DNA from: an uncultured Candidatus Binatia bacterium
GTDB lineage: Bacteria; Desulfobacterota; Binatia; Bin18
Assembly: GCA_965242795.1 (NCBI GenBank)
Contig: OZ251505.1
Location: 3,265,587-3,329,586, forward strand
Length of the DNA: 64,000 nucleotides
Reading direction: 5' to 3'
In this document: one piece after another, positions 1,074 through 47,172 of the stretch
Numbering within the stretch: the stretch's first letter is position 1
How the letters are laid out: each line of letters begins with the position of its first letter
The notes under the pieces: generated by a model
The model's input: only the letters and a program-made list of their open reading frames with translations
Told to the model about the DNA's origin: nothing
Databases searched by the model: none
Translations under genes and position numbers: made by a program

Positions 1074-1179
1074 TTCGGAATCCATTCCGAGATAGTCGAA
1101 CCAGTTCGGAATATACTCCGAATTGGTTCAGTCAACAACCGACAGGGAGGATTTCAGATTAGGCGGCCCGGGACCCTGA

Positions 1180-30085: not shown

Positions 30086-30217
30086 GTGCGATCTTCCTCG
30101 ATGTCGGACTCGCCGAATGTGGCCGGACCCTAGCGCCGCGGCGTTTCGAGTGTCAACGCCGCGCGACGCCCACTCGTGGGAGGGTGCAGTTTCGTTTGCG
30201 GGGGCAGGTCTCGCGGC

Positions 30218-30283
30218 GGGGACCCCCCACCGGCTCGACTACGGGCTGACGCCCTTGTCTCGCCGACTCCCCCTCACCCTTCG
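30218..30283. repeat. GC-rich 62-bp element (solo copy) shared with the hsdS-embedded DUF559 cassette terminus (40833-40900, ~95% identical)
   Basis: ggggaccccccaccggctcgactacgggctgacgcccttgtctcgccgactccccctcaccc versus gacgaccccccaccggctcgactgcgggctgcgcccttgtctcgccgactccccctcaagggggg. Confidence 0.65.
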
Positions 30284-30289
30284 ACCATC

Positions 30290-33200
30290 TCAAGACACCG
30301 CCGGCTCGGGGACTCGGGAGGCGACGGCCCAGCCCGCGGACAGGACTTCGGCCTGCTCCAGGACGGTGCGCGTGGCCTGCTCCCGCTTGTCGGGCGGATA
30401 ACCGTGTTTGCGCAGAATGCGCTTGACCAGGACGCGCAACTGCGCGCGCACGTTCTCGCGCAGCGTCCAGTCGATGGTGACGTTGCGGCGCACCGTCTCG
30501 ACCAGTTCGCGCGCAATGGCGCGTAGGGGTTCGTCGCCGAGCACGCGGACCGCGCTGTCGTTGGTCTCCAGCGCGTCGTAGAAGGCGATCTCGTCCTCCG
30601 ACAACCCGAGCGCGGCGCCGCGGGCGTTCGCCGTGCGCAGGTCGCGGGCGAGGTGGATCAACTCTTCGATCACCTGCGCGGCTTCGACGGCGCGGTTCCG
30701 ATAGCGGCGCAAGGTCTGCTCCAACATGGCGCTGAAGGTGCGCGCCTGGACCACGTTCCGGCGCCCGCGGGCGGTGATCTCGCCCTTCAGGAGTTTCTGC
30801 AGCAGATCGACGGCCAGGTTGCGCTGCGGCATGCCCCGAACCTCGGCCAGAAAGTCGTCGGAGAGGACCGATACGTCGGGCTTGTCCAGCCCGGCCGCGG
30901 CGAAGACGTCGGTCACGCCCGCGGACGCGACCGCGCGCGAGATGATCTGCCGGACGGCGCGGTCCATCTCGTCCGCGGGCCGTGCCGCGCCCGGCGCGCG
31001 TTTCGCCAGTACCGCCCGCACCGCCTGGAGGAAGCCCACGTCGTCGCGGATGCGCAGCGCGTCCGCGTGGGGTACCGCCAGCGCGAACGCGTGCGACAAG
31101 GCGTGCACCGCCTGCAGGCAGCGCTCCTTGCCGTCGGGCTGCGCCAGCACGTGTTCCTGCGCCGCGGGCAACAGGCCCAGCCGCTGCGCCGGCGTGCCGG
31201 CCGCCCACGCCGCCCGGTCGAAGCCGTGGAACAGGCCGCAGCAGACCTCGTATTTTTCCAACAGCACCGCGACCGCGTCGGCCTGGTCCAGCGCGGCGCG
31301 CCCGGCGCCACCGCCCTCCGTATAGGTCGCCAGCGCGCGGCGGAGTTCGTGGGCCACGCCCAGATAATCGACCACCAGCCCGCCCGGCTTGTCCCGGAAC
31401 ACGCGGTTGACCCGGGCGATGGCCTGCATCAGCGCGTGGCCGCGCAGCGGTTTGTCCAGATACAGGGTGTGCAGGCTGGGCGCGTCGAAGCCGGTCAGCC
31501 ACATGTCGCGCACCAGCACCATGCGCAGCGGGTCCGCGGGGTCGCGGAAGCGGGCGGCCAGCGCCTCGCGCCGGGGTTTGGTGCGGATGTGCGGCTGCCA
31601 GTCGGGCGGGTCGGCCGCGGCGCCGGTCATGACGATCTTGAGTGCCCCCTGTGCGTCGTCCGGGGCATGCCAGTCCGGGCGCAGGCGCACCAGTTCCCGG
31701 TACAGGGCGATGCAGATGCGCCGGCTCATGCACACGACCATCGCCTTGCCGTCGAGCGCTGTGAGTCGCTGCTCGAAGTGCGTGACCAGGTCGCGGGCCA
31801 CGAGCGCCAGCCGCTGTTCGGCGCCGACCACCGCTTCGAGCTGCGCCCAGCGCGACTTGAGCTTTTCCTTGCGCGCCGTCTCCTCGCCCTCGGTCGCTTC
31901 CTCGAAGTCGGAGTCGATGCTCGGGCGTTCGCGTTCGTCCAGGGCGAGCGCGGCCAGCCGGCTTTCGTAGTAGATCGGGACCGTGGCCCGGTCTTCGACC
32001 GCGCGCTGGACGTCGTAGATGCTGATGTAGTCGCCGAACACGGCGCGCGTGTTGGCGTCGCGCAATTCGACCGGCGTGCCGGTGAAGCCCACGAAGGCGG
32101 CGTGCGGCAGGGCGTCGCGGATGTGGCGTGCGTAGCCGTCGATGAAGTCGTACTGGCTGCGGTGCGCTTCGTCGGCGATCACCACGATGTTGCGGCGCTC
32201 GGACAACGCCGGGGTCGGTGCGGGGTGCGACTCCCGTTCCTCGGACGTATCGGACCGGAGGCGGGCGAGACCCCCGCGTGCCCGGGAGGGAGGCGCGGCC
32301 GGCGCTTCCGGAAAGAATTTCTGGATGGTGGTGAAGATGACGCCGCCGGACGCCACGGCGAGTTTGGCGTGCAGGTCGGCGCGGCTGTCCGCCTGGACCG
32401 GCGGCTGGCGCAACAGGTCCCGGCAGCGCGCGAAGGTGGCGAACAACTGGTCGTCCAGGTCGTTGCGGTCGGTCAGCACCACCACGGTCGGGTTCCGCAG
32501 GGCCGGCTCGCGGACGATGCGCCCGGCGTAGAACGCCATCGTCAGGCTCTTGCCCGACCCCTGCGTGTGCCAGACCACGCCGATGCGGCGGTCGCCGGGT
32601 TCGCCGCCCGGCTTGCGTCCCGCCTCGTAGCGGCCGCCGGCCCCTTCGCCGACGGTGTCGGCCTCCTGTTGCAATTCGGTCGCGCGCAGGGTTTCGGCGA
32701 CCGCGATCTCGACCGCGTGGAACTGGTGGTAGCCCGCCATTTTCTTGACGGGCGCGCCGTCGTCCTCGAAGACGATGAAATCGCGCACCAGCGCCAGAAA
32801 GCGGGCCGGCGCGCACACGCCCTTCAGCAGCACTTCGAGTTCGGGCCGTGCCGGATCGGCCAGCGCGGCGCCGGCAATCGTGCGCCACGGCTTGAACCAC
32901 TCGCGCCCCGCGGTCAGCGTGCCGATGCGCGCCTCCACTCCGTCGGACACGATCAGCGCGGCGTTCAGGGCGAACAGGGCGGGCAACTCGGCCTTGTAGG
33001 TCTGCAACTGGTGCCACGCGGTCCAGACGGTCGCGTCCTCGTCCGCGGGGTTCTTCAACTCGACGATGCCGAGCGGCAGGCCGTTCACGAACAACATCAC
33101 GTCGGGCCGCCGCTCGCGTTGCTGCTCCACCACGGTGAACTGATTGACCGCCAGCCAGTCGTTCTCGTCCGGCTCATCGAAGTCGAGCACGCGCGCCTGC

Positions 33201-33532
33201 GCCCCGCGGACCGCGCCGCCGTCGGGGCGATATTCCACGGTCACACCGTCCACGACCATGCGGTGAAAGGCGCGGTTGCGGGTTTCCAGCGTGACGCCGT
33301 CCGGCCGGGTCAGCCGGCGGACCGCGGCGTCAAGCGCGTCTGCCGGCAGGGCGGGGTTGAGGCGGGCCAGCGCGTCGCGCAGCCGCGGCTCCAGCACGAC
33401 CGCGGCGTAATCGGCGCGCTCCGCCCCGGGCGTTCCCGGTGCGATGTCCGGCCCGGAGGCGACCGACCAGCCCAGGCCGCGCAGCCAGTCGAGCGCCGCG
33501 TCCTCGACGGTGGATTCGGTGAAGTCGGTCAC
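30290..33532 (-). CDS. hsdR: Type I restriction enzyme R subunit (HsdR), ~1080 aa
   Basis: Probable GTG start at [22 protein letters not shown] (classic HsdR N-terminus). Helicase motif I …[11 protein letters not shown]…, DEAH box [10 protein letters not shown], motif VI …QAIARVNR…; C-terminal helical domain. Track ORF 30290..34330 over-extends at the 5' end. Confidence 0.9.
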
Positions 33533-34293: not shown

Positions 34294-34739
34294 GTGAACA
34301 ACCCTCGCCGGATGATGGGCGGGTCCACAACGTGACAGAACCGCAGGAAATCTTCGAGAGTTCGCCACGGATCGTTCACGTTCACGAAACGGTCGCCCGG
34401 AACCGGAGCCGCCCACTTGTCGCCGTATCCCTCGCGGTAGAGATGGATGTGCGGCGATCCGATCTCCTCTCCATCCGGGTTGCGGTGCGGTGCCCCGCCG
34501 AAATCGAGCCGGACGAGGACCACGACCTGTCGTCCGCGCTGTTGATAGGTGCCTTTCGCAAGATCGATTCGCGCCCGGGGGATGTCGAGCAGAAACGCCT
34601 CGCGCCGGTCGGTCGAAGCCAACGGAACCGTCACTCGTCCTCCGAAGTCCGGGTAGTCGTACTCGGTCTCGTCGACTCGGCGCTTCTCCATTCTCAGGAG
34701 GGCGTCGGCCTCAGCCTGCGTAAGGTCATGATTCGCCAT
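34290..34739 (-). CDS. Hypothetical protein (149 aa) in the hsd-embedded cargo
   Basis: …[45 protein letters not shown]…; possible His-containing active-site-like motif (PHIHLY). ATGA overlap with the DUF1829 gene. Confidence 0.4.
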
Positions 34740-34754
34740 CGAAGTTGCTCTTTA

Positions 34755-35894
34755 TTACGTGTGCAGGTCCGGGGGGTCCTCACTCGGAATGACGTCGGCA
34801 ATGCGGGCATGCAGCAAGTGCCAGCGCTGGCCGGTGCGCTCCAGGTCGCCTTTTATGACGACCGGCGCCTTGGCGGCGTGGGCGTGAATCGCGCGGTCGT
34901 AGTCGGATTGCGGCAGAACGGCGCTGACGGACTGGATTCGTCCGTCGATGTACGTGCGCAGCGTGATGGCCCCGCCGGTCTCCCGTCCGTCGCGTTGCAG
35001 GCGTTGCACGAGGCCGACCAGTTGCGCGTCCGGTTGCGGTTCGCGCTCGCGGAACGACCGGGCCGCCTCGCGCAGGATCGGCGCGTCGGCCTCGGCGAAA
35101 CGGACGACCGTGCGCACCGTGTCCAGCGGACGGGTGCGCGCCCAGGTCAGGCTGACGTCCAAGGTCGGGAACGGTCCGATCAGGTCGGCGAGCGATTCGC
35201 ACAAGTTGGCGCTCGTCCCGTGGACGACCGCGTTGGAGAAGGCCGCGGCGTCGCCGCCCACCGTTCTTTCCGTTGCCTCGCGGGTAGCGCTCAACGCTTC
35301 GGTCAGACGCCGCGTCATGCGCCGTTCGATCGGGTCGTCGTCGGGGGCCACGTCCAGGGCGAGCAGGGGTTGCGTGGGGGGCGGCACGACCGGAGGCAAC
35401 AAGGTCACGACGTAACTCCCCTGTTCGCTTTGCCCCAAGCGCACGCAGCCGACATAGGCGCTGGCCTCTCGGTTCGCGCCGGCGCGATAGAGCGGTCGCG
35501 GCTCGCGCAACGAGCAGGCCGCGGCCAGCAGCATGTCGTAGGCGCCGCGGAGGAGGCTGACCCCGTCGTTGACGGCTACGGAACCGGTGTCGTCGGGGGC
35601 CACCCGCACCCGGATGACGTCGCGGTCGGCGGTCACCAAGTCGCGGTAGAGCGCGAGTTCGTCCATGTCGGCAACCCGCGCGAAAATGTCGATGAGTTGC
35701 GCAACGACGGCGGCGTAGTCGCCGAGGCGCTGGGTGCGCGGCACGACGATCTCCGGCAGCCCGTCCGCGGCATACACGTCGGAATGATCGCCGTAGGGTT
35801 CGCGCCTGACCCATCCCGCAGCGCGGGCATAGGCCGAGAGGGCCGCAGGGGAAACCGCGGTCAAGGCTTCCGTGTCCCGGATGCTGGCTTTCAT
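34755..35894 (-). CDS. Hypothetical protein (379 aa), translationally coupled to the upstream DUF4365-like gene
   Basis: Start MKASIRDTEALTAVSPAAL… overlaps the stop of the preceding gene (ATGA at 35891-35894). Ordinary globular composition; no known motif recognised. Confidence 0.5.
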   Translation of the reverse strand: MKASIRDTEALTAVSPAALSAYARAAGWVRREPYGDHSDVYAADGLPEIVVPRTQRLGDYAAVVAQLIDIFARVADMDELALYRDLVTADRDVIRVRVAPDDTGSVAVNDGVSLLRGAYDMLLAAACSLREPRPLYRAGANREASAYVGCVRLGQSEQGSYVVTLLPPVVPPPTQPLLALDVAPDDDPIERRMTRRLTEALSATREATERTVGGDAAAFSNAVVHGTSANLCESLADLIGPFPTLDVSLTWARTRPLDTVRTVVRFAEADAPILREAARSFREREPQPDAQLVGLVQRLQRDGRETGGAITLRTYIDGRIQSVSAVLPQSDYDRAIHAHAAKAPVVIKGDLERTGQRWHLLHARIADVIPSEDPPDLHT

Positions 35895-36391
35895 CGGACG
35901 GTCCCTCCTCTCGATTGGTCCATCAATGCGCGCAGACCTTCGACAGTGAACAGATTCCCCGTCGGGATTCGGACGGTGACGGACGATCGATTGTCCGATT
36001 CCTCGGCCCCTTGCAAGTTCAGCCAATAGGCGCTCCGCCGCAGTATGAGCTCGTCCGCGGTGATCGTCATCCAGCGGTGCTCGTCCCTCGGCAGGTCGAG
36101 TACGACGAGCAGGCGCGGCGTCTGGGTCGGCTGACGTAACAGATCGTAGTTTCGACGTTTGAGGGGGAAGTGAAAACGTCCTTCATGCGGTTCGCTCAGA
36201 TTGATCGTTGCCTTCAATTGCAAATCGAGCGCCGGGCGCATCGCCCCGCCGGCTTGAATTCGCAGGTCCACGCCGTCCCGGTCCGGGTCGGGGATGGACG
36301 TGACGTAGCCGGTCCGTGCCGCTACGGCGTACGCATAGGCGCGGGAGAGGGCTTCTTGCCGGTCGGGGGCGGTCAGGAGGGTGTCGGTCAT
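35891..36391 (-). CDS. DUF4365-like PD-(D/E)xK-fold protein
   Basis: 166 aa. …IPDPDRDGVDLRIQAGG…LDLQLKAT… fits a D…(D/E)xK restriction-endonuclease-like core. The family call is tentative. Confidence 0.5.
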   Translation of the reverse strand: MTDTLLTAPDRQEALSRAYAYAVAARTGYVTSIPDPDRDGVDLRIQAGGAMRPALDLQLKATINLSEPHEGRFHFPLKRRNYDLLRQPTQTPRLLVVLDLPRDEHRWMTITADELILRRSAYWLNLQGAEESDNRSSVTVRIPTGNLFTVEGLRALMDQSRGGTVR

Positions 36392-36689
36392 AGGATGCTT
36401 TCACCTGTTTTTCAGGATTGCGGCTCTTGAGAGATTCGATCCGCGGGACGGCGGGTGAGGCAGCCGATTGGGACATTGGGGAGAGTCTCGGGGGCTTGTC
36501 GGCCCGCAGTTGACCGGAAAAGGGGGGCCAGGGCAAGAAGACAGGCTGGCGGTCGTGCATCCGTTTCGGTGGCGCTGCCCGGGAACGTGGGCGTTCCGCC
36601 CGCCTGTGGTGCGGACTGGAAGCCCGCGTTCCCAGGAAGAATAAGGCCAATCGATGCACGCCCGAAGGCTCAAGGCAGCCGGGTTCTTT

Positions 36690-36750
36690 CCTCCGATCAC
36701 CTCCCCCTAGTCCCTGAGATGGTCGAAGGATGAGGGGGAGTGATAGGAAG
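36690..36750. repeat. Near-perfect 12-bp inverted repeat (atcacctccccct…agggggagtgat) in a 410-bp intergenic gap; shares the 'gggggagtgat' motif with 40885 and 40968
   Basis: gatcacctccccctagtccctgagatggtcgaaggatgagggggagtgatagg. Confidence 0.4.
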
Positions 36751-36802
36751 GGCGCCCTACGGGCACGCTAAAGAATGGATATAACGTAGCCGGTCCACGC
36801 AG

Positions 36803-37474
36803 CTACGATGCTGGAACTGTCACATGGACCACAGCCCGTTCGGCAGGAAGTATCGACTCAGCAAAGGAGCCATCCTGCACGGGGAGCCTGTCAGCATATC
36901 GAGCCGACGCGGTGTGGTAGAAATTCCTGAGAATGAAGTCGATAAACCAGAAAGGCGTCATTGGGGCCGTTACCGGGATCCGGCAGTTTTGGTATTGGCC
37001 GAGCGTCAAATGAGACTTAGGATGTGTTAGCTCTCGGTGACGGCCGTCCCGAGCGTCATAGTCAAAACGCACCGGAAACGGAACGATGTTCCTGGAGAGC
37101 ACATCAGCGTAGATTTCGTCGTCTTGGTAGATATCCGGATTGTTCTGGAATTCTTCAAGGTGGGGTGCAGAGAAAAACGCAAGTCGGTGACGTTGCAGCG
37201 TTCCATTGACGAAGGCGTATGTCATCTGAATCAATGCGCCGTCAAGCATCTTTGCGTTGTAGGCACGCTCTTGGACAAGACTTTGGTAAATTTCCTCGTA
37301 TGGACGATCCTTTAACGCTTCTGACACATGTTCAGCTTTGTCAAAAGTGACTTGCACAAGATTATTAGCACCAGACTTTTGGAACGCAAAGCGTTGATCG
37401 TCGACGAGACTCCTCTCAACTAAATACTTGATGATTTCGTTGACTTGCTTTTCAACCTGATTGGAAGTTGGCAC
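36803..37474 (-). CDS. Hypothetical protein (223 aa; possibly DUF2290-like), upstream partner of the NERD-helicase
   Basis: Low-GC codon usage matching the helicase gene. Lies 5 nt upstream of the helicase stop and is presumably co-transcribed. No catalytic motif recognised. Confidence 0.5.
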   Translation of the reverse strand: MPTSNQVEKQVNEIIKYLVERSLVDDQRFAFQKSGANNLVQVTFDKAEHVSEALKDRPYEEIYQSLVQERAYNAKMLDGALIQMTYAFVNGTLQRHRLAFFSAPHLEEFQNNPDIYQDDEIYADVLSRNIVPFPVRFDYDARDGRHRELTHPKSHLTLGQYQNCRIPVTAPMTPFWFIDFILRNFYHTASARYADRLPVQDGSFAESILPAERAVVHVTVPAS

Positions 37475-37479
37475 GATCC

Positions 37480-39642
37480 TTATCCTTTCTCCATCAAGAG
37501 GGTTCGCAGTTTGGCCCGTTTGTTCCCGTCTAGGTCCTCAATATGAACATCACCCGATTCGATGTCTGCAATTAAATTGGCTAGGCTTCTTTCGTGGCTT
37601 TTCAATCGCTTGCGACCCTGCATTGTCATATCTCGATGAATGATCCACAACTTGTTACGTTGTTCTTTCGTAGGGTAGACGAATTGCAACTCGAAATCTT
37701 GTCGTCTTAGCTTCTGGTATTCTTCTTCAAGTTTCTTCATGTTATTACCGACACCGAGAACACGGACCCATGCTTTGCTTCGGGTTACGGCTGTAAAGAG
37801 ACGGTTCCGAATACTCGCTAAGTTCCACGCCGTTGAGTGACAGTCTTGTGCGTTGATGATATAAACCATTCCGGCTTCATTACCTTTAGCGCGATATATT
37901 CCGGTGAATGTCACAGAGGTCGAATCTGGCTGGAAAAAAACGTCTGCGGGGGTGTCGACTCCAGCGAGGTGGGAATCGATGCCCATTTCCAATAAGCGTC
38001 TACGTATTGGCCCAACATTTTGCCGGGTCGTAAGGGGATCAGGGTTGATGACAATTATGTCGTCATGTTTGAGTTCGTCGTTCTGAAGGTTGTTCCTGAT
38101 TTCGTTAGCCAACCATTCAGCCTGGGACTCATCATCGTCGAATTTTTTGAATAGGACAAGGTCGTCAACAGGGGAATGGTTTTCGAGGAATGCTGGGCTT
38201 GAATCTGTCGTCCTGTGAAGAATAATGTGCGACCCTTCCCTTAACTCTCCCGCTTTGTTGTAGTAGCCGACATCTTCCCATAGCTGCGGATGTTCAAACA
38301 TCTGGATGAGACCTGTCTCACTTAAATCTGATGGTTCCCGATATATGCCAAATCCGAGCGCATGTGCTGTTACAAGAACAGGACGTGAGTTACGGTAACA
38401 CTTTTTCAGAATGATATCGCATTGTGGCTCATCGCTTCCCGCATCATTGAATCTCACTTTGGGGGACCCGTCAGCCTTTTTCCCAAAGATTTCTTCCGGT
38501 GAGGATAAGGACTCTCCAGAGAGGCTCTGCAACTCATCGTAAGCATAAACCAGTCTTTTGGGGTATTTTAGCAATTCGTAACAGAGTCGCAGAAACATGG
38601 GGGAAAAGTCCTGTGCCTCGTCTAGGAGAACTGCGTCGTAGAGATGCTTGCTTTGATGGACTTGATTAAGCGCGTGTTCGCATGCCCCGGAAAATTCCTT
38701 TTCCCTACCGAACTTATCTCTCGCCGCTCCGAAATCGAAGTAGTCAATGTCATGTTGGCGACAAAATTCGTAATAAATTCCGTCACGTTCGCTGCTACCA
38801 GGAGCTCCCCACGCGGTGACGATTCGTAGAATATTCCAGTCAGGCTCCTCGCCCGTTTGTTCTATGGAAAATTTATTTATCAGACGACGAAAATGTCCCT
38901 TCAGCGAACGAGTATTGAATGTGACAGCTATACGCCATTCAGGATGTTGTGCGTGGAGATAGGCTGCTTTCAGTGCTAAGATGATAGTCTTACCCGAACC
39001 TGCTAAGCCGCGGATGCGCTGTACTCCTTCGACTGTTTCGATAACCGCCCGGATTTGTCTATTATCGAGCGTAGAGATCGAATTTTCAAGTTCTTTGAGT
39101 CTGTAGCCTCGAGAGTTGTTTTTTGTAGTGGTCCGGCCGAGCTTATTTTTTCTAATCGTAGAAACACTTTCGATTACGGACAGCGATTTCTCGTATATTT
39201 CTTTGCTTGAATTCTCCCATCTCAAATTCTCTAGCTCGTGGATAAGGGAACGAGAATTGGCGAGGGGGTAGCTGCATTCCGAGGATAGATTCAATTTACT
39301 AATTCCCGGCGCAAACGAAATCGTATGGACCGGGATAAGGAGCTTTCTTTGTAGCATTAATTCTCGATGAGTTTTAAGTCGCCCTTCAAGCTTGTTGGCA
39401 GAGTCATCTTGTCGAAATTGGTAATCTCCGGCCTCAGACCCCTCTATCAGGTCAAATAGAACGATTCCTTTGTCTGCAGACACAAAGATCGCGTCAATTA
39501 GATGGCGTCCTTCGGACGTGTTGATGATTGGATATCCGATGAACAACTGGCCCGCTAAAGCAGTCTGAGAGGAAAACATTTCAACCAGAAACTGACTAGA
39601 AGCAGGCTTCTGATTGGTTCCTTGAACTATGTTTATGCTCAT
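37480..39642 (-). CDS. NERD-domain / superfamily-1 (UvrD/Dna2-like) helicase, 720 aa
   Basis: N-terminal NERD-like segment (…GYPIINTSEGRHLIDAIFVSADKGIVLFDLIEG…). Walker A IRGLAGSGKT, motif II VLLDEAQDF, motif VI-like TAVTRSKAW. ~45% GC. Confidence 0.8.
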   Translation of the reverse strand: MSINIVQGTNQKPASSQFLVEMFSSQTALAGQLFIGYPIINTSEGRHLIDAIFVSADKGIVLFDLIEGSEAGDYQFRQDDSANKLEGRLKTHRELMLQRKLLIPVHTISFAPGISKLNLSSECSYPLANSRSLIHELENLRWENSSKEIYEKSLSVIESVSTIRKNKLGRTTTKNNSRGYRLKELENSISTLDNRQIRAVIETVEGVQRIRGLAGSGKTIILALKAAYLHAQHPEWRIAVTFNTRSLKGHFRRLINKFSIEQTGEEPDWNILRIVTAWGAPGSSERDGIYYEFCRQHDIDYFDFGAARDKFGREKEFSGACEHALNQVHQSKHLYDAVLLDEAQDFSPMFLRLCYELLKYPKRLVYAYDELQSLSGESLSSPEEIFGKKADGSPKVRFNDAGSDEPQCDIILKKCYRNSRPVLVTAHALGFGIYREPSDLSETGLIQMFEHPQLWEDVGYYNKAGELREGSHIILHRTTDSSPAFLENHSPVDDLVLFKKFDDDESQAEWLANEIRNNLQNDELKHDDIIVINPDPLTTRQNVGPIRRRLLEMGIDSHLAGVDTPADVFFQPDSTSVTFTGIYRAKGNEAGMVYIINAQDCHSTAWNLASIRNRLFTAVTRSKAWVRVLGVGNNMKKLEEEYQKLRRQDFELQFVYPTKEQRNKLWIIHRDMTMQGRKRLKSHERSLANLIADIESGDVHIEDLDGNKRAKLRTLLMEKG

Positions 39643-39662
39643 AGGCGGCTCCTTTTATTGTC

Positions 39663-41627
39663 CTAGCTTTTATCGCCTGATGGTTCATGGACATCCCTCT
39701 CGAGATTTGAAACTGGATATTCTAACTCATCTGAAATAAGTCTCAGTAGCAACGTATCTCGTACTGAAGTTAATGTGCAAATTTCCTTCTCGTGTAACAA
39801 AATCGTTTTATGGATTGGATGGCTCATCTTCTCAAACCATCTTATTAGATTTGATCCCGGATTCAAAATGGACAAATTACTAAAGGTGGACTTGTTCATA
39901 TTCCCAAATACAGACCCTCCACTTCCTCCCGCTAGGACCTCGGCCGATAAGCCTCTACATGCCCAATACAAATATTTGATCATCCGCCTGTCATTAGGAA
40001 CTATACTGTTGATTTGCTGGTTAGTGTGAGTCTCTCTATGGTTGATGACTACAAGCCCGGGTGTAGCTATGCAACTCATCGACATACTACCTGGGGGCAA
40101 GGCTTTCGTAGGCTGAGATGAAGCGCCTGCGTATGAAAGCATAGTGTGGGTGTGCATTACATATATCCTTTTATGCATATCAGGGATTTTCAAGAATGGG
40201 ACGTCCGCTCCGTAGAAGGCCGGATTGTGTGTATCTGGGGTTTTTCCAGTAACTATTGTTCCAAACTCTTTCAATTTCTTCAAGGCCCATCTTCTTGGGA
40301 TCGGACCGACAGCAGATTTCTCGAACCCATCCGGGAACAGGGCCACAACCTCCGGGTCCATCCCGTCGAGATAGGCACGGGCGCGTTCGACCGTCCACGC
40401 CGTGGTTCCCTTCCTATCATTCCCCCCTTGAGGGGGAGTCGCAGTCGCCAAGCCTTCAGGCGCCGGCGACTGCGGTGGGGGGTCCCCCGCTACCGCCTCG
40501 TACACCCGCTCCAACACCCCGAAACAGTTCTCGAAGACCTCCGTATTCCAGAAGCGGAGCACGCGGTAGCCCCGCGCCCGGAGAAAGGCGTCGCGCTTCT
40601 CGTCCCGGCTCGTCTGTTCCGCATGCTGGCCGCCGTCGAGTTCGATGAGCACCTTGCGGGACAGACAGGCGAAATCGACGATGTACGGACCGATGGGTTG
40701 TTGGCGGCGGAACCGGTAGCTGCCGAGTTGTTTGTTGCGGAGGTAGTGCCAGAGGAGTCCTTCGGCGTCGGTGCGGTTGCGGCGGAGGGCGCGGGCGGCG
40801 GTCAAGGCGCGACGGGAGTAGCCGCGGCGGACGACCCCCCACCGGCTCGACTGCGGGCTGCGCCCTTGTCTCGCCGACTCCCCCTCAAGGGGGGAGTGAT
40901 GAGACGGGGAAACCGGCGGGGAGGAGAGTCTCCCATGGGCCGTGGCCGTTTCGTCTCCTGCTTGCAACGGGGAGTGATGGGATGAGGCACGGCGCTTGAG
41001 GGCGGCTTTGGCGTGGACGGGGTCGAAATCGACGAACCAGGACTTGAACAGCGCCCGCGCCATATCCTCCAGCGTGGCGTTCAGGCGGCGGTTCAGGGCG
41101 ATCTTGTCGTCCAGCGTGCCGAGGACGTGGGCGATGCGGTGTTGCTCCGGGAGCGGCGGCAGCCGGAGTTCCAGCCGCGCGATGTCGTCGGGCCGGATGG
41201 ACGGATAGGCGGAGACGCTGTGCTCGGCGATGGTGTGCAGCCGCTCGACGACATGGCCTTGCGCCAGAAACCAGTAGAGGAAGTCCGTATGTGCCACGCC
41301 GGCCTTGCCCCGGATGACGGCGAAGGCGGTCGAGACCAGCAGATTGTCCGGCGGGTCTTTCAGCAGGCCGAAGTGGCGCTGGTCCGGGCGCACGGTCGAA
41401 TACACGATGTCGCCCGGCTGCACCTTGCGGCGCGCCCGACTCGGAATCTTGTCGGTCCCCGGCACCAGGCGGCGGATGGTACCAACGCGATTGTCGGTGA
41501 CGTTGCCGGTATCGAGATAGTGGATGAACGGCCACGCCTCTTTCGGCGAATACGTGGCGTCGTTGATGACCGCGCAGTCGCCCAGGGTCACGGTGCGCCA
41601 CTGAACCGTATTCGATACGGAAGCCAT
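39663..41627 (-). CDS. hsdS: Type I restriction-modification specificity subunit HsdS with an in-frame ~200-aa DUF559 (Vsr-like endonuclease) insertion in the central conserved region; low-GC TRD2
   Basis: TRD1 plus central conserved helix (…LPPLPEQHRIAHVLGTLDDKIALNRRLNATLEDMARALFKSWFVDFDPV…). Then the insert with a DUF559 core (…LLWHYLRNKQLGSYRFRRQQPIGPYIVDFACLSRKVLIELDGGQHAEQTSRDEKRDAFLRARGYRVLRFWNTEVFEN…). Then resumption (…ARAYLDG…) and TRD2. 654 aa versus ~400-450 typical. Confidence 0.8.
   Translation of the reverse strand: MASVSNTVQWRTVTLGDCAVINDATYSPKEAWPFIHYLDTGNVTDNRVGTIRRLVPGTDKIPSRARRKVQPGDIVYSTVRPDQRHFGLLKDPPDNLLVSTAFAVIRGKAGVAHTDFLYWFLAQGHVVERLHTIAEHSVSAYPSIRPDDIARLELRLPPLPEQHRIAHVLGTLDDKIALNRRLNATLEDMARALFKSWFVDFDPVHAKAALKRRASSHHSPLQAGDETATAHGRLSSPPVSPSHHSPLEGESARQGRSPQSSRWGVVRRGYSRRALTAARALRRNRTDAEGLLWHYLRNKQLGSYRFRRQQPIGPYIVDFACLSRKVLIELDGGQHAEQTSRDEKRDAFLRARGYRVLRFWNTEVFENCFGVLERVYEAVAGDPPPQSPAPEGLATATPPQGGNDRKGTTAWTVERARAYLDGMDPEVVALFPDGFEKSAVGPIPRRWALKKLKEFGTIVTGKTPDTHNPAFYGADVPFLKIPDMHKRIYVMHTHTMLSYAGASSQPTKALPPGSMSMSCIATPGLVVINHRETHTNQQINSIVPNDRRMIKYLYWACRGLSAEVLAGGSGGSVFGNMNKSTFSNLSILNPGSNLIRWFEKMSHPIHKTILLHEKEICTLTSVRDTLLLRLISDELEYPVSNLERDVHEPSGDKS
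40414..40900 (-). mobile_element. Inverted-repeat-bounded DUF559 cassette inserted in-frame into hsdS (miniature selfish element candidate)
   Basis: tccccccttgagggggagt at 40414-40432 and its inverted counterpart gactccccctcaaggggggagtgat at 40868-40892 flank the DUF559-coding segment. The 5' flank carries the 62-bp GC-rich element also found at 30218-30283. The flanks translate as HSPL(Q/E)GE mini-repeats inside HsdS. Confidence 0.4.
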
Positions 41628-41969
41628 GTTGCGAACAATATCAGGGTCGCGGAGCTTTTCCTGGTATCCTTGCTAATGAGAATTACGGAGGGGCGCCAAG
41701 GCGTCCACGCTCTCCCTTTCTTTTCCCTTGGTCCCGAAATGCTCCAGGTGTCGGCCTTGCTAAGCGCGGATTCCTCCACGATTCAGACGCATTTTCACGA
41801 CGCGGAGGCTGGCGACCGTCACGTCGTCGGAGTCCTCTTCGTAGCCAGTGACGACGACGCGCCGGGCGTCCGGATGAGTCTCCAAAGCCCGGAGCAATTC
41901 CCTGACGGTCGTGGCGTTCTCTCCAACGTCCCTAACGCGGCTCCGTTCCGCGAAATCATCGGAAGCCCG

Positions 41970-42275
41970 CGTATCGGTCATCTGTGGCCGGCAAAAGAAT
42001 TTGTCGGCCATTTTTGGCGAAAAGTGGCCGGCAACGCGCGTTGTCGGTCATGGGTGGCCGATAGCGCCGTTCGTCTCGAAAGGGCGCCATCAATCCAGAC
42101 CGCCGGCGGCCGTGGCGTCGCAATCATACCCGTCTTCGCCATCCACGGCTCCGGCTCGATAGAGTTCCTTCCGTATCGGTCATCCATGACCATCAAAGGA
42201 ATTTGCCGGCCATTTTTTGCGGAAAGTGGCCGGCAACGCGCGTTGTCGGTCATGGGTGGCCGATAGCGCCGTTCC
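41970..42275. repeat. Two ~105-bp direct repeats (41970-42072 and 42171-42275), each containing reiterated tcggtcatNNgtggccggcaa sub-motifs; in the fic-hsdS intergenic region
   Basis: cgtatcggtcatctgtggccggcaaaagaatttgtcggccatttttggcgaaaagtggccggcaacgcgcgttgtcggtcatgggtggccgatagcgccgttc repeated with ~90% identity. Confidence 0.7.
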
Positions 42276-43374
42276 CGCCCTCCACGGTCTCGATGAGGTC
42301 GGAGAACGCGAGCACGGTCGTCCGGCGGCCTCTGCCGCGGCCGATGACGCTCAGAATGCCGCCCTCGCACAACGCGTCCACGAGGCGCCGCGCCGTTCTT
42401 GCCGGAATGCCGGCATCGGCAACGAAATGGGAACTGCGGAAGATCGGTCGCTCGAAAATCCAGTCCAATGCGCGGATGGCGTATCGGGAGCGCGTCAGAT
42501 TCGGCACGCGCCGCTTCATGTCGTCGTAGAGGGCGAGAATCCCCTTGGTCTTGACCAAGTTGTCTTCCGCCTGTGCCTGCACCGCTTCGAGGAAGAACCG
42601 ACACCAGCCGGTCCAGTCATCATCGCGTGAGACGCCCAGCAGTTGCTCATAGTAGATGTCCCGGTGCGCCTCGAAATAGGCGCTAATGTAGAACATGGGC
42701 CGTCCGATAATGCCGTGCTGCCACAAGAACAGGGGAATCAGCATCCGCCCGAGGCGGCCGTTACCGTCCAGAAATGGGTGCAGCGCCTCGAACTCGGCGT
42801 GGAGAATGGCGAGTTGCGTCAGCCGGTCGGGGGCGTCCCGGTGAACGTATCGCTCCCATCCGCTCATGGCACGGGTGAGCGTCTCGGCACCGGGAGGGAC
42901 GAATTTGGCTTGGTCGATGTCGCAGCCGGGCGGGCCGATCCAGTTGGGGACGCGCCGGTATCTCCCCGGGGACTTTCCTTTCCCGCGGACGCCGGACAGT
43001 AACACTTTGTGCACGCTGCGGAGGACGCGCTGGGAGAGCGGCAGCTTCTTCAGCATCTGCTCCGCTTGCCGCATGGCGGCCCGGTAATTGAGCACTTCAT
43101 GGATGTCGTCGCGGCGTTCGGGCGATTCCGCTTCCTGTCCGGCTTCGAACTCCATCACCTCGCCCATGGTGGCCTGCGTGCCCTCGATCCGTGAAGAAAG
43201 GACGGCCTCCCTGGTCGTCAGGGGCGCGAGCAGCACGTCGGGGTTCGGGACCGCGGAGAGCATCCCGTCGTACCGCGCGACCGCGCCGGCCGCCGGACCG
43301 ATCAGCGGGATCAGCGTCTGCCAGTCGAGACGCTCGGGCGGGAACTGCCCGGCGTGATAGTGGATGGGCGCCAT
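42250..43374 (-). CDS. fic: Fic/DOC-family protein (class II, N-terminal inhibitory helix) embedded between hsdM and hsdS
   Basis: FIC motif HPFLDGNGRLGR; alpha-inh-like motif SRIEGT near the N-terminus; 374 aa. The start ATG overlaps the hsdM stop (TGATG). Track ORF 42250..44319 is an over-extension. Confidence 0.85.
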   Translation of the reverse strand: MAPIHYHAGQFPPERLDWQTLIPLIGPAAGAVARYDGMLSAVPNPDVLLAPLTTREAVLSSRIEGTQATMGEVMEFEAGQEAESPERRDDIHEVLNYRAAMRQAEQMLKKLPLSQRVLRSVHKVLLSGVRGKGKSPGRYRRVPNWIGPPGCDIDQAKFVPPGAETLTRAMSGWERYVHRDAPDRLTQLAILHAEFEALHPFLDGNGRLGRMLIPLFLWQHGIIGRPMFYISAYFEAHRDIYYEQLLGVSRDDDWTGWCRFFLEAVQAQAEDNLVKTKGILALYDDMKRRVPNLTRSRYAIRALDWIFERPIFRSSHFVADAGIPARTARRLVDALCEGGILSVIGRGRGRRTTVLAFSDLIETVEGGNGAIGHP

Positions 43375-44963
43375 CAGTCCCCTCCGAATCCGAGGCGGCG
43401 CAGATTCTCCGCAATGGCGGCGTCCAGCTTCTTCGCCTCGGCCTGCTGGGCGCGGAGTTGCGCGGTGAGGCGGCGCATCTTGGCCTCGAACGACTCGCCG
43501 TCGTCCCGCGGGGCCGCCGCGCCGACGTAGCGGCCGGGGGTGAGCACGTGACCGTGGGCGCGGATGTCGTCCAGCGTAGTGCTTTTGCAGAAGCCGGGCG
43601 CGTCGACGTCCGTCCCCGTGCGCCACGCATGATAGGTATCGGCGATGCGGCCCACGTCGTCGGCTGCGAGTTCGCGGTGGGTGCGGTCCACCATGCGGCC
43701 CAGCTTGCGGGCGTCGATGAACAGCACGTGGCCGCGCCGCGGGCTGCGCGGGCGGTCGCGGGCGAGGAACCACAGGCAGGCCGGAATCTGGGTCGAGTAG
43801 AAGAGTTGGCCCGGCAGGGCGACGAGGCAGTCCACCACGTCGGCCTCGACCAGGCCGCGGCGGATGCTGCCCTCGCCGGCCTGGGTGGACGACATGGAGC
43901 CGTTGGCCAGCACGAACCCGGCCACGCCGGCGGGCGCCAGATGGTGCACGATGTGCTGTACCCAGGCGAAGTTGGCGTTGCCCTTGGGCGGCACGCCGTA
44001 GCGCCAGCGCGTGTCGTCGGCGAGCCGCTCGCCGCCCCAGTCGGAGACGTTGAAGGGCGGGTTGGCGAGGATGAAGTCGGCCTTGAGGTCGGGGTGGCGG
44101 TCGTCGTGGAAGCTGTCGCCCTGCGCGATCTGGCCGGCGATGCCGCGGATCGCGAGGTTCATCTGTGCGAGCCGCCACGTCGTATAGTTCGACTCCTGGC
44201 CGTAGATGGAGATGTCCGGCTTGGCGCCGCCGGGCATGCGCTCGCCATTGCCGTTGCCGGTCGCGTGCGCGTCGATGAAGGCGACCGACTGGACGAACAT
44301 GCCGGCCGAGCCGCAGCACGGGTCGTACACCCGGCCGCGGTAGGGCCGCAGCATCTCCACCAGGAGGGTGACCACGCAGCGTGGGGTGTAGAACTGGCCG
44401 CCCTTCTTGCCTTCGGCGCTGGCGAACTGCGACAGGAAGTATTCGTACACGCGGCCGAGCACGTCCTTGGACCGGGCGTCGGCGTCGCCCACGCGGACGT
44501 TGCCGACGAGGTCGATCAGCCGGCCGAGCTGCTGTTTGTCGAGGCCGGGGCGCGCGTAGTCCTTGGGCAGCACGTCCGCGAGCGCGGGGTTGTCGCGTTC
44601 GATGGCGGCCATAGCGTCATCCACGCGCCGGCCGACGTCGGGCTGCCGCGCCTGAGCCGCGAGATGCGGCCAGCGCGCCTCGGGCGGCACCCAGAAGACG
44701 TTCTGGGCGCGGTATTCGTCCGGGTCTTCCGGGTCGGCGCCCTCGGCCCGTTCGCCTTCGAGGCGGGCGTGCGTCTCGGCGAACGCGTCGGAGATGTACT
44801 TCAGGAAGATCAGGCCGAGGACGACGTGCTTGTATTCCGCGGCGTCCATACTGCCGCGCAACGCGTCGGCCATGCGCCACAGCTCGGCTTCGTAGCCGGT
44901 CGTGGCGCCGGACGGTGCGGCGTCGGTCTGCGGCGGGGTCTTCTTCGTGCGGGTACGGGCCAT
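43374..44963 (-). CDS. hsdM: Type I restriction-modification N6-adenine DNA methyltransferase subunit (HsdM)
   Basis: N-terminal HsdM_N helical domain (…[18 protein letters not shown]…). SAM motif I …[12 protein letters not shown]…, catalytic NPPF (…ILANPPFNV…). 529 aa. Confidence 0.9.
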
Positions 44964-46289: not shown

Positions 46290-46440
46290 AACAACCCAAT
46301 CGGAGAGGGGACTTTGCTCCTTCTCTTTCTCCCCTCGTTCCCTCCGATCACCTTTCTCCCTTCCACCTTTCGACACCCTTCGACAGGCTCAGGGACCGAG
46401 CTCAAGGAACCGCAAGATCAGGGACTACCGAGGGCGGGTT
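46290..46440. repeat. Dispersed repeat family ('PFDKLR' element), copy 3
   Basis: …ctttcgacacccttcgacaggctcagggaccgagctcaaggaaccgcaagatcagggac… related to 15340-15410. Confidence 0.5.
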
Positions 46441-47010: not shown

Positions 47011-47172
47011 GGGAGCCTCCGGGGATTGGGGAATTGTGGATTTTTGATTGCGGTGTGCTGAGCCTGTCGAAGCATGGATCGTGGATTTTCGATTGCGATG
47101 CGCTGAGCCTGCGGTGCCTTGAGCGTGTCGAAAGGCCGAAGCGTGGATTGCCGGGGAGCGGAGGAAGGCGGC

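What the first reader, a model, noticed from the sequence alone, without database searches (positions are those of the whole stretch)
39663..41627. hsdS carries an in-frame, inverted-repeat-flanked DUF559 (Vsr-like endonuclease) cassette in its central conserved region
The HsdS reading frame runs TRD1, central helix, a ~200-aa insert with a clear DUF559 core, resumed conserved region, then TRD2. This gives 654 aa instead of ~420. At the DNA level the insert is bounded by tccccccttgagggggagt (40414-40432) and the inverted gactccccctcaagggggga (40868-40890). Its flanks translate as HSPLQ/EGE mini-repeats. One flank contains a 62-bp GC-rich element that also occurs as a solo copy just downstream of hsdR (30218-30283). 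This looks like a small selfish DNA cassette that landed in frame inside the TRD spacer. It could inactivate HsdS, alter TRD spacing and hence specificity, or donate nuclease activity to the complex.
Basis: seen in the sequence. Interest (0 to 1): 0.75.

Follow-up and report, generated by a model that had tools for sequence, protein, structure and literature searches.

The report
Nuclease-carrying palindromic element inside hsdS
A restriction-enzyme specificity gene carries, in frame, a small palindrome-bounded DNA element that encodes its own Vsr-like nuclease. The same element family is spread across many bacterial phyla and also sits in frame inside other genes, so it looks like an unrecognised kind of selfish DNA that proteins tolerate.

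Summary
ORF 39663-41627 (-) is an intact 654-aa type I HsdS with a complete DUF559 (Vsr-like) domain between the first conserved helix and TRD2. The insert is bounded by 22-nt palindromes at 40419-40440 and 40876-40897. A 56-nt copy of one end lies after hsdR.

It is not a one-off landing. 102 of the 120 best homologues, down to about 40% identity, have DUF559 at the same point, mostly with the same palindromes.

Orthologous loci show loss. One keeps a single hairpin; others keep only the last 21 residues of DUF559.

The ends match those of roughly 150-200-nt ORF-less repeats. These are multi-copy in metagenome-assembled genomes (MAGs) of at least seven phyla, with identical 22-mers. They sit in frame inside aroA, hsdR and a TPR protein.

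Free-standing DUF559 genes carry the same ends. More generally, 42 of 75 distant DUF559 genes are bracketed by hairpin repeats, against 0 of 58 controls.

Embedded copies are under purifying selection (dN/dS 0.12-0.19) and keep the conserved acidic and histidine residues. The AlphaFold model keeps the HsdS scaffold, and both coiled-coil helices are unchanged.

Best reading: a tolerated, read-through selfish element whose nuclease probably serves the element rather than restriction. Mobilisation by DUF559 is inferred, not shown. I found no description of this in the searchable literature.

The parts
39663..41627 (-). hsdS ORF, 654 aa, read through the insert
   Evidence: A 100% identical protein (P0001) exists in NCBI/ENA on a 4.19-Mb contig.
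41001..41627 (-). TRD1 and first conserved helix (aa 1-209), about 67% GC
   Evidence: Pfam Methylase_S 9-187. AF2 pLDDT is mostly 80-95, with helix 159-199 and helix 202-216.
40898..41000 (-). N-side linker (aa 210-243) with an extra nested palindromic segment. It is flanked by the direct repeat GGGGAGTGATG (40891-40909 / 40969-40987).
   Evidence: D2. The segment is absent in P0016 and P0003 and present in P0002, P0004 and P0014. AF2 predicts it disordered.
40876..40897 (.). Terminal palindrome on the 5' (N-terminal) side of the cassette, read as HSPLEGES
   Evidence: The identical 22-mer occurs in at least 120 stretches of the genome collection.
40826..40875 (-). 5' arm of the element (about 50 nt, ending in GGTGGGGGG). 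This is the part that has the solo copy after hsdR.
   Evidence: Hairpin plus arm (67-70 nt) matches ORF-less copies at 92-97% (L050, L072, L017, L118).
40491..40805 (-). DUF559 / Vsr-like PD-(D/E)XK nuclease domain (aa 275-379)
   Evidence: Pfam E 1.4e-39. PDB 3HRL E 2.2e-27. D318, E329, D331 and H335 are 98-100% conserved in embedded and free copies. dN/dS is 0.12-0.19.
40441..40490 (-). 3' arm of the element (CCCCCCACC plus an internal hairpin, 40440-40474)
   Evidence: (I8). Hairpin plus arm matches L009, L041 and L038 at 87-90% over 67-68 nt.
40419..40440 (.). Terminal palindrome on the 3' (C-terminal) side, read as TPPQGGN
40293..40418 (-). GC-rich conserved HsdS segment after the insert (…TAWTVERARAYLDGMDPEVVALFPDGFE…), leading into TRD2
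   Evidence: 59-97% identical in the fusions where the segment was matched, and also present in DUF559-less relatives. AF2 pLDDT is about 90 from aa 410.
39666..40292 (-). TRD2 and second conserved helix (aa 446-654), about 40-48% GC. A swapped-in module.
   Evidence: The same low-GC TRD2 is in L001 (88% aa).
30221..30296 (-). Solo 5' end of the element (arm plus half hairpin plus an 18-nt nested unit). It overlaps the hsdR stop codon.
   Evidence: It is at the orthologous position in L001 (93%) and L002 (84%, decayed).
36696..36752 (.). Solo terminal hairpin with the 18-nt unit in its loop, at the edge of the low-GC block just after the DUF2290 stop
   Evidence: (z = -3.05). There is a 19-nt inverted match to 40408-40426.
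43374..44963 (-). hsdM
   Evidence: PADLOC MTase_I E 2e-205
30290..33496 (-). hsdR. The start is approximate, placed by comparison with the 1068-aa orthologue.
   Evidence: Pfam HSDR_N, SWI2_SNF2, T1R_D3-like and T1RH-like_C. L001 orthologue.

Best explanation
Shown:
- The ORF is an intact type I specificity subunit.
- Its loop between the first conserved helix and TRD2 holds a 479-bp element (40419-40897; the extended inverted repeat spans 40394-40922).
- The element is built as terminal palindrome, ~50-nt arm, DUF559 gene, ~50-nt arm, terminal palindrome. It is open in the hsdS frame from end to end, so it is translated as part of HsdS on disordered Pro/Gly/Ser-rich linkers.
- It is the long form of a repeat family. 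The short forms (about 150-200 nt, no ORF) have the same ends.
- The family is multi-copy, shares identical 22-nt termini across MAGs of many phyla, and sits in frame in other genes (aroA, hsdR, a TPR membrane protein).
- The hsdS::DUF559 state is widespread and is occasionally lost by deletion.
- The embedded nuclease is under purifying selection and keeps its conserved acidic and histidine residues.

Inferred:
- HsdS still works. The insert sits in a permissive loop and leaves both coiled-coil helices unchanged.
- The nuclease works for the element. It would nick or cut at the palindromes or at element-free sites, so that repair copies the element through its shared ~67-nt ends (homing or gene conversion).
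- That would account for the same insertion point recurring in many hsdS lineages, the interleaving of embedded and free copies in the tree, and a cassette that is younger than its flanks.
For: Architecture and spread
- The architecture is confirmed.
- 102 of the 120 best homologues carry PF04480 plus PF01420, always between CR1 and the pre-TRD2 segment.
- Hairpin-encoded peptides (TPPLRGS / SPLEGE upstream, TPPQGGS downstream) flank 66 of 108 embedded copies on both sides.

Gain and loss in orthologous loci
- L002 is the orthologous locus, with the same flanking genes. At the site it has only CATCACTCCCCCC-loop-GGGGGGGAGTGATG.
- The window has the cassette between those same arms.
- P0054 and P0057 keep only the last 21 aa of DUF559.

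A wider repeat family
Taxa include Nitrospinota, Nitrospirales, Gemmatimonadota, Acidobacteriota, Latescibacterota, Alpha- and Gammaproteobacteria and Deferribacteraceae. Several genomes have many copies.
- Twenty complete short elements have the same end structure.
- Both window ends match ORF-less copies at 85-97% over about 67 nt.

In-frame insertions in other genes
- They split Pfam domains in EPSP synthase (L105) and in the SWI2/SNF2 domain of an HsdR (L041).

Free-standing modules
- In L003-L005 the ATG abuts the left palindrome and the stop follows the right one.
- L006 is another free-standing copy. In L128 the gene is flanked by complete short elements.

Evolution of the nuclease
- In the neighbour-joining tree the 108 embedded domains are not monophyletic.
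- Embedded L041 versus free L006: dN 0.03, dS 0.40.
- Embedded versus embedded: dN/dS 0.12-0.19.
- Conserved residues are retained.
- Window versus L001: cassette dS 0.012, against 0.11 and 0.20 for the flanking hsdS parts.

Structure
- AF2 gives the scaffold pLDDT above 90, and the insert and linkers low confidence.

Family-wide link
- 42 of 75 distant DUF559 genes are bracketed by an exact inverted repeat of at least 12 nt, against 0 of 58 controls.
- 40 of 84 have the same hairpin on both sides.

Precedents
- In-frame palindromic elements: RPEs (PMC10969869).
- A Vsr-fold homing endonuclease: I-Bth0305I (PMC3239194).
Against: - No activity or mobility was observed.
- Only about 5 of the 120 hairpin loci have a DUF559 gene nearby, so the short forms may be moved by another enzyme.
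- No target-site duplication could be defined. The flanks only extend the palindrome.
- In this lineage the copies look old. The solo end after hsdR is fixed in three related genomes.
- Six of the seven window-versus-L001 differences in DUF559 are non-synonymous, which could mean relaxed constraint here.
- The neighbour-joining tree is crude, and some 'free' copies are hsdS fragments (P0130, P0151).
- Long conservation of an intact nuclease inside HsdS is equally what exaptation would give.
- The AF2 confidence of the DUF559 part is low.
Confidence: 0.55

Rival explanations
1. Exapted domain. The cassette was domesticated long ago, and the DUF559 domain now does a job for the restriction complex. 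It could act as an extra nuclease or nickase, or as a DNA- or mismatch-binding module tethered to HsdS. On this view the palindromes are only relics kept as linker-coding sequence.
For: - The fusion is widespread and long-lived.
- dN/dS is 0.12-0.19 and the conserved residues are kept in embedded copies.
- DUF559 diverges about as slowly as the conserved HsdS parts.
- A DUF559 protein (Caulobacter VsrA) causes a DNA-damage response when DNA lacks a specific methylation, so a link to methylation has a precedent (PMC12907096).
Against: - hsdR with its own nuclease domain is present.
- Close relatives have lost the domain yet keep intact hsdS ORFs of 559-623 aa.
- Embedded and free copies interleave in the tree.
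- The palindromic DNA ends are conserved, not only the peptides. The identical 22-mer recurs across phyla.
- AF2 gives no confident contact between the domain and the scaffold.
Confidence: 0.2
2. Passive passenger. The palindromes are REP-like repeats moved or amplified by some other enzyme (a RAYT or IS200/IS605-type transposase, or replication slippage and recombination). DUF559 genes merely tend to lie between them. In hsdS the whole block is a neutral insertion kept open only because TRD2 must be translated.
For: - Most hairpin copies have no DUF559 nearby.
- The terminal hairpin structure resembles REPs, and nested small units sit in the hairpin loops.
- The copies in this lineage are old.
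Against: - Purifying selection acts on the amino-acid sequence, not just on an open frame.
- The bracketing is specific and family-wide: 42 of 75 against 0 of 58.
- In free-standing copies the ORF runs exactly from one palindrome to the other.
- There is weak covariation between hairpin type and DUF559 sequence.
Confidence: 0.2
3. Programmed inversion switch. The inverted repeats let the cassette flip, switching HsdS between a full-length form and a truncated half-size form with a different specificity.
For: - The cassette is flanked by inverted repeats of 26-48 nt.
- 'DUF559 domain-containing protein' is enriched (odds ratio 14) among model-predicted inversion targets (PMC9881135).
- Inversion would stop the protein at aa 319, after TRD1 and CR1.
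Against: - No inverted form was found among the 249 retrieved proteins.
- No second hsdS copy was seen among the genes characterised in the operon, and no recombinase among them.
- The enrichment in that paper is a prediction from repeat geometry. No long-read confirmation for this family is stated in the passages I read.
Confidence: 0.03
4. Artefact or dead gene. The fusion is an assembly chimera, as the GC break might suggest, or a pseudogene that only looks intact.
For: There is a sharp GC change inside the ORF.
Against: - The same ORF with the same GC break is in an independent assembly (L001: 90% aa, helicase 90% nt) and in P0003.
- More than 100 independent fusions have open frames.
- The junction lies in the conserved LFPDGFE…IP.GW region where TRDs are normally exchanged.
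Confidence: 0.02

Closest known systems
Rickettsia palindromic elements (RPEs) and other intragenic MITEs
   Same: Small palindromic repeats are inserted in frame into unrelated protein-coding genes and add a peptide segment the protein tolerates. Here that is seen in aroA, hsdR, hsdS and a TPR protein. The RPE description is from PMC10969869.
   Different: - This family has a long form that encodes a complete nuclease domain, read through as part of the host protein.
- It is spread across many phyla rather than one genus.
- No sequence relation to RPEs was tested.
REP sequences with their RAYT gene (REPINs)
   Same: GC-rich palindromic hairpins are multi-copy in the genome, and the protein gene is typically bracketed by the repeats.
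   Different: - The bracketed gene is a Vsr-like PD-(D/E)XK nuclease, not an HUH/Y1 transposase.
- The repeats are often translated, and the ORF runs through them.
Homing endonuclease genes, including the Vsr-fold enzyme I-Bth0305I (EDxHD family), and inteins
   Same: - A selfish nuclease gene sits at one defined point of a conserved host gene.
- Alleles differ in whether they carry it.
- The nuclease has a Vsr-like fold (PMC3239194).
- The host protein is not destroyed.
   Different: - No intron or intein. Pfam finds no splicing domain, and the insert stays in the protein.
- The ends are palindromic repeats that also exist as short ORF-less copies elsewhere.
Ordinary type I HsdS variation (TRD swapping, central-repeat length changes as in EcoR124I, phase-variable hsdS inversions)
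   Same: The central region and the TRD borders are where hsdS genes recombine. TRD2 here was swapped in together with low-GC cargo genes.
   Different: - The insert is outside the coiled-coil helices, so it should not change the spacer length.
- No alternative hsdS copy or recombinase was identified among the genes characterised.
Free-standing DUF559 / Vsr-like proteins (N. gonorrhoeae 3HRL, Caulobacter VsrA)
   Same: Same domain (3HRL E 2.2e-27). VsrA is genetically linked to DNA damage in cells lacking a methylation (PMC12907096).
   Different: Here the domain is embedded in another protein and bounded by repeats. No mismatch-repair partner (a cytosine methyltransferase) was seen in the operon.

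Membership tests
Type I R-M specificity subunit (HsdS) | Two target-recognition domains, each followed by a conserved helix | tested here: met
   - Pfam Methylase_S in 2 stretches.
- PADLOC Specificity_I on aa 9-211 and 433-638.
- AF2 helices at 159-199 and 592-631, pLDDT about 90.
Type I R-M specificity subunit (HsdS) | Encoded with hsdM and hsdR | tested here: met
   - hsdM at 43374-44963.
- hsdR at 30290-~33496.
- Same gene order in L001 and L002.
Type I R-M specificity subunit (HsdS) | Directs methylation of a bipartite motif | not testable with these tools
   Needs a methylome or expression of the genes.
DUF559 / Vsr-like PD-(D/E)XK nuclease | Sequence match to the family profile and to a solved member | tested here: met
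   PF04480 E 1.4e-39, covering 105 of 109 profile positions. 3HRL E 2.2e-27.
DUF559 / Vsr-like PD-(D/E)XK nuclease | Conserved acidic and histidine residues of the active site | tested here: met
   D318, E329, D331 and H335 are present and 98-100% conserved in 108 embedded and 106 free copies. Their catalytic role is taken from knowledge of the fold and was not tested.
DUF559 / Vsr-like PD-(D/E)XK nuclease | Nuclease activity | not testable with these tools
   Needs biochemistry.
MITE with an autonomous partner | Terminal inverted repeats shared by short and long forms; multi-copy | tested here: met
MITE with an autonomous partner | Target-site duplication | tested here: inconclusive
   The flanks of 20 short elements only extend the palindrome. 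No direct repeat is evident and the true ends are uncertain.
MITE with an autonomous partner | The long form encodes a known transposase | tested here: not met
   The only domain in the insert is DUF559, with a weak MTES_1575 overlap. This is not a known transposase family.
REP / RAYT system | A Y1 (HUH) transposase gene flanked by the repeats | tested here: not met
   The flanked gene is DUF559. Genomes were not searched for RAYTs.
Rickettsia palindromic elements | Palindromic repeat of about 100-150 bp inserted in frame in unrelated genes | tested here: met
   L105 aroA-cmk, L041 hsdR and L029 TPR protein, with the Pfam domains split in aroA and hsdR. This is the same behaviour only. Homology to RPEs was not tested.
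Homing endonuclease gene | Presence/absence at the same site of homologous genes | tested here: met
   Window and L001 are filled. L002, P0050, P0051 and P0060-63 are empty with a hairpin or linker remnants. P0054 and P0057 are partly deleted.
Homing endonuclease gene | Sits in a self-splicing intron or intein, or is free-standing next to its target | tested here: not met
   No intein or intron signature. The insert is translated within HsdS.
Homing endonuclease gene | Cleaves the empty allele | not testable with these tools
   Needs biochemistry.
Phase-variable hsdS (inversion shufflon) | Inversion yields alternative full-length hsdS alleles; recombinase nearby | tested here: not met
   Inversion gives a stop at aa 319. 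There are no inverted variants. No recombinase was found among the neighbours scanned.

The most novel reading that the evidence does not exclude
DUF559 proteins are the dedicated nucleases of a previously unrecognised, very widespread class of palindrome-bounded selfish elements. The class would be a third kind beside REP/RAYT and classical homing endonuclease genes. Each lineage would have its own C-rich/G-rich hairpin. The short ORF-less derivatives would spread like MITEs. The long forms would be built to be read through, so they can live as extra domains inside host proteins such as HsdS. The identical 22-nt termini in MAGs of at least seven phyla, many with sponge-associated names, would then record recent cross-phylum transfer.
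Probability: 0.35. Interest if true: 0.85.

Novelty: new variant of a known kind. Interest (0 to 1): 0.7.

Why it matters
- DUF559 is one of the commonest uncharacterised nuclease families in bacteria. This locus gives it a testable role: a nuclease tied to its own flanking palindromes.
- It shows that a whole folded nuclease domain, and not just a short peptide, can persist as an in-frame selfish insert in a working protein. That extends the RPE phenomenon well beyond Rickettsia.
- It is a natural experiment on how much the HsdS central loop can tolerate, which is useful for engineering type I specificity subunits.
- An identical 22-mer in bacteria of many phyla is a potential marker of horizontal transfer within a shared habitat.
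- For annotation: HsdS proteins of 600-800 aa carrying DUF559 should not be dismissed as gene-calling errors.

Tried and rejected
- Exact look-up of the window protein and of P0001 in the contig index found nothing. I used P0002 and P0051 instead.
- The cluster look-up gave no names or accessions.
- Rfam on 29500-42500 gave only a chance miRNA match (E 0.37). The 22-mer is absent from viral contigs.
- The window's own genome was not among the 120 loci returned.
- Inversion switch: the inverted form truncates HsdS, and no inverted variants were seen.
- Assembly chimera: rejected, because independent assemblies have the same GC break.
- Intein or intron: no such domains or RNA families.
- The DUF559-only homology search did not list the known HsdS fusions among its best hits. 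The embedded-versus-free comparison therefore rests on my own pooled tree.
- Literature searches for DUF559, COG2852, HsdS with an inserted endonuclease domain, Vsr-like with palindromic repeats, and sponge symbiont repeats found no description of this architecture or of a DUF559-palindrome link. The library does not hold most subscription journals.
- Covariation of hairpin type with DUF559 sequence is significant but small and confounded by lineage. I do not lean on it.
- One script call did nothing.
Full report
**1. What is in the sequence**

ORF 39663..41627 (minus strand) is open for 654 codons. Pfam finds the type I specificity domain (Methylase_S) in two stretches. Between them is a full-length DUF559 domain at aa 275-379, E 1.4e-39. 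PADLOC specificity-subunit models match both halves.

The insert is bounded by a 22-nt palindrome, GACTCCCCCTCAAGGGGGGAGT. It is exact at 40876-40897 and has one mismatch at 40419-40440 on the other strand, with none expected by chance. The complementarity extends to 48 nt at 81% (40394-40441 / 40875-40922). A second, inner pair lies at 40473-40490 / 40827-40844. Because each end is itself a palindrome, the two ends are direct and inverted repeats at once.

The N-side linker also holds an 11-nt direct repeat around an extra nested segment (D2). Some close relatives lack that segment.

The '62-bp element' is real. Positions 40833-40887 recur at 30221-30276 (96% over 56 nt), directly after the hsdR stop codon.

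The GC content drops from about 67% to about 45% inside the ORF near 40300. It stays low through TRD2/CR2 and the next two genes.

**2. Surroundings**

The gene sits in a type I operon on the minus strand. The order is:
- hsdM (43374-44963)
- a SoFic-type Fic gene
- hsdS
- a helicase (37480-39642) and a DUF2290 gene (36803-37474). These match the PADLOC Helicase and DUF2290 models and form the low-GC block.
- PDC-M02A/B and PDC-M24A/B candidate defence genes
- hsdR

The orthologous locus in an independent assembly (L001; HsdS 90% identical) has the same order and the same GC break. The helicase there is 90% identical at the DNA level. The fusion is therefore not an assembly artefact.

**3. The fusion is widespread**

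Of the 120 best homologues of the whole protein, 102 carry both DUF559 and Methylase_S. My segment-by-segment comparison puts DUF559 in the same place in all of them: after the first conserved helix and before a conserved segment, …W.VERARAYLDGMDPE..ALFPD….

The TRDs are often unrelated (22-40% identity), as expected from TRD shuffling. The DUF559 domain stays at 61-96% and the conserved HsdS segments at 55-94%. About half of the relatives also have an N-terminal nucleotidyltransferase extension, which the window protein lacks.

Fusions come from at least a Nitrospira MAG (L041), a Latescibacterota MAG (L119) and the window's own high-GC organism.

**4. Gain and loss**

Several HsdS proteins are 92-94% identical to the window protein in TRD1/CR1 yet have no DUF559.
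- P0054 and P0057 keep exactly the last 21 residues of the domain. These are internal deletions.
- P0050, P0051 and P0060-63 keep only linker remnants.

L002 encodes P0051 and is the orthologous chromosomal locus, with the same flanking metabolic genes, hsdM and hsdR. At the DNA level its site reads CATCACTCCCCCC–25-nt loop–GGGGGGGAGTGATG, a single hairpin. In the window the cassette lies between those same outer arms.

Recombination between the two terminal palindromes would leave such a solo hairpin. That step is inference.

More distant HsdS proteins (P0043, P0056) have no trace of hairpin or linker.

**5. The cassette belongs to a repeat family**

The taxa were Nitrospinota, Nitrospirales, Gemmatimonadota, Acidobacteriota (including Ca. 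Versatilivorator), Latescibacterota, Gamma- and Alphaproteobacteria, Deferribacteraceae and unclassified MAGs. Several chromosomes contributed 5-10 stretches each. Many isolate names suggest sponge-associated bacteria. That is my reading of the names and was not tested.

Twenty complete short elements of 146-196 nt have this structure: palindrome, ~30-nt arm, GGTGGGGGG, AT-rich centre, CCCCCCACC, ~30-nt arm, palindrome.

The window cassette has the same ends, with the DUF559 ORF in place of the centre. Its 5' end matches ORF-less copies at 92-97% over 67-70 nt. Its 3' end matches at 85-90%.

Only about five of the 120 stretches have a DUF559 gene nearby.

**6. In-frame life in other genes**

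Fifteen of 127 hairpin clusters lie inside spanning ORFs. Three are clear cases.
- A short element splits the EPSP-synthase domain of an aroA-cmk gene (L105).
- About 110 aa of nested elements split the SWI2/SNF2 domain of an HsdR (L041).
- One element sits in the linker of a membrane/TPR protein (L029).

This is the behaviour described for Rickettsia palindromic elements (PMC10969869).

**7. Free-standing modules**

The DUF559 proteins closest to the window domain, outside hsdS, carry the same hairpin-encoded peptides at both ends.
- In L003-L005 the gene is intergenic in a non-RM context. The ATG abuts the left palindrome, the stop follows the right one, and the GC-rich module stands out from AT-richer DNA.
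- In L006 the gene lies upstream of an hsdM, amid seven hairpins.
- In L128 a 130-aa DUF559 gene is flanked on both sides by complete short elements.

The link goes beyond this clade. I took 75 DUF559 loci from unrelated metagenomes, 48-59% identical to the window domain. An exact inverted repeat of at least 12 nt brackets the gene in 42 of them, against 0 of 58 control positions in the same loci. In 40 of 84 loci the same perfect hairpin lies on both sides. The lineage-specific stems are CCTCTCCC, CTCCCCC and TTCCCCC.

An independent hint comes from the literature. 'DUF559 domain-containing protein' is enriched among genes predicted from repeat geometry to be inversion targets (PMC9881135).

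**8. Selection and history**

- Embedded copies compared with each other give dN/dS of 0.12-0.19.
- D318, E329, D331 and H335 are 98-100% conserved in 108 embedded and 106 free copies.
- The domain matches the solved DUF559 protein 3HRL at E 2.2e-27.

So the amino-acid sequence is maintained, and not merely the open frame.

In a neighbour-joining tree of 216 domains the embedded copies are not one clade. They interleave with free copies. Embedded L041 is much closer to free L006 (dN 0.03, dS 0.40) than to the other embedded copies.

Between the window and L001, the cassette has dS 0.012. TRD1/CR1 has 0.11 and TRD2/CR2 has 0.20. The cassette is therefore younger than its flanks or has been homogenised. 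Six of its seven differences are non-synonymous, but the numbers are small.

The solo end after hsdR is at the orthologous position in L001 (93%) and L002 (84%, decayed), so it is old.

**9. Structure**

AlphaFold2 with a 105-sequence alignment predicts TRD1, TRD2 and both long helices (159-199 and 592-631) at pLDDT of about 90. Residues 221-408 have low confidence and the linkers have no structure.

The insert is anchored in a loop after the CR1 helix. The segment that follows it (aa 410-445) is confidently part of the scaffold. The two coiled-coil helices have equal length, so a change in TRD spacing is unlikely. This is inference from a model.

**10. How it most likely works**

*Shown.* A read-through, palindrome-bounded, nuclease-encoding element lies in a loop of an otherwise intact HsdS. 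It belongs to a horizontally spread family with short and long forms that tolerates, or exploits, in-frame residence in proteins.

*Inferred.* The nuclease acts on the palindromes or on element-free sites, and repair through the shared ~67-nt ends copies or restores the element. This fits the recurrent insertion point, the interleaved tree, and a cassette younger than its flanks. The Vsr-fold homing enzyme I-Bth0305I is a precedent (PMC3239194).

*Rivals.*
- Domestication of the domain by the restriction complex
- A passive-passenger model in which another enzyme moves the hairpins
- An inversion switch. Inversion would stop the protein at aa 319, and no inverted forms were seen.
- An artefact, which the independent assemblies reject

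**11. Comparison with what is known, and novelty**

The element behaves like an RPE or intragenic MITE. It is arranged like a REP/RAYT unit. It shows allele polymorphism like a homing endonuclease gene. It fails a defining test of each:
- It encodes no known transposase.
- It encodes no Y1 transposase.
- It has no intron or intein.

I found no paper describing HsdS-DUF559 fusions or a DUF559-palindrome association in the searchable library. That library lacks most subscription journals.

I rate it a new variant of known kinds. There is a fair chance (about 0.35) that it marks a new class of selfish element with DUF559 as its enzyme.

Noticed in passing
window 36757-40292 (with 36734-36752 and 40408-40426): There is a low-GC block of about 45%, against about 68% around it. 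It holds TRD2/CR2 of hsdS plus a helicase and a DUF2290 gene that match the PADLOC Helicase and DUF2290 models. Inverted 19-nt copies of GGGGGAGTGATAGGAAGGG bracket it: a solo hairpin on one side and the cassette's right end on the other. The hairpins may be recombination points for cargo exchange.
   Followed up: partly
L130-L209 (JGI metagenome loci) and L003-L006, L128: This appears to be a family-wide property of DUF559. 42 of 75 distant DUF559 genes are bracketed by exact inverted repeats of at least 12 nt that are themselves C-rich/G-rich hairpins, against 0 of 58 controls. There are at least three lineage-specific stem types (CCTCTCCC, CTCCCCC, TTCCCCC).
   Followed up: partly
L105 5406-5427; L041 2230-2251; L029 4092-4113: Elements of the same repeat family are inserted in frame in an aroA-cmk gene (splitting the EPSP synthase domain), in an HsdR helicase domain (about 110 aa of nested repeats), and in a membrane/TPR protein.
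   Followed up: yes
window 1174-1191, 30278-30295, 36712-36729, 46377-46394, 47117-47134: An 18-nt unit, CCYTCGACMAKCTCAGGG, occurs 5 times in the window (0.5 expected). It tends to sit in the loop of the large hairpins, including the left hairpin in L001. A related copy sits in the solo hairpin in L002. It looks like a second, nested repeat family.
   Followed up: partly
window 33529-37474 and 42250-43374: The type I operon is packed with other defence genes between hsdM and hsdR: SoFic, helicase plus DUF2290, PDC-M02A/B and PDC-M24A/B. The orthologous locus L002 carries different cargo (HEPN/MNT, PIN-PhdYeFM, a 553-aa unknown). The operon is therefore a cargo hot spot.
   Followed up: partly
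P0004, P0006-P0011 and many others; L002 9586-11791: Many HsdS relatives have a ~110-125-aa N-terminal nucleotidyltransferase (MNT-like) domain fused to TRD1, with the HEPN-like partner gene just upstream. This may be a real fusion or a shared-frame gene-calling effect. The window protein lacks it.
   Followed up: no
L097 1150-2400: In a Ca. Versatilivorator chromosome, a ~386-nt unit made of these hairpins and arms is tandemly duplicated next to a DUF559 gene, with ten 22-mers in 8 kb. This shows local amplification of the elements.
   Followed up: no
window 40482-40823 versus L001 10826-11167: Six of the seven nucleotide differences in the DUF559 domain between the two closest genomes change the amino acid, and the window copy departs from the family consensus (for example LGS for LDG). 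This may reflect relaxed constraint in this lineage, but the numbers are small.
   Followed up: partly
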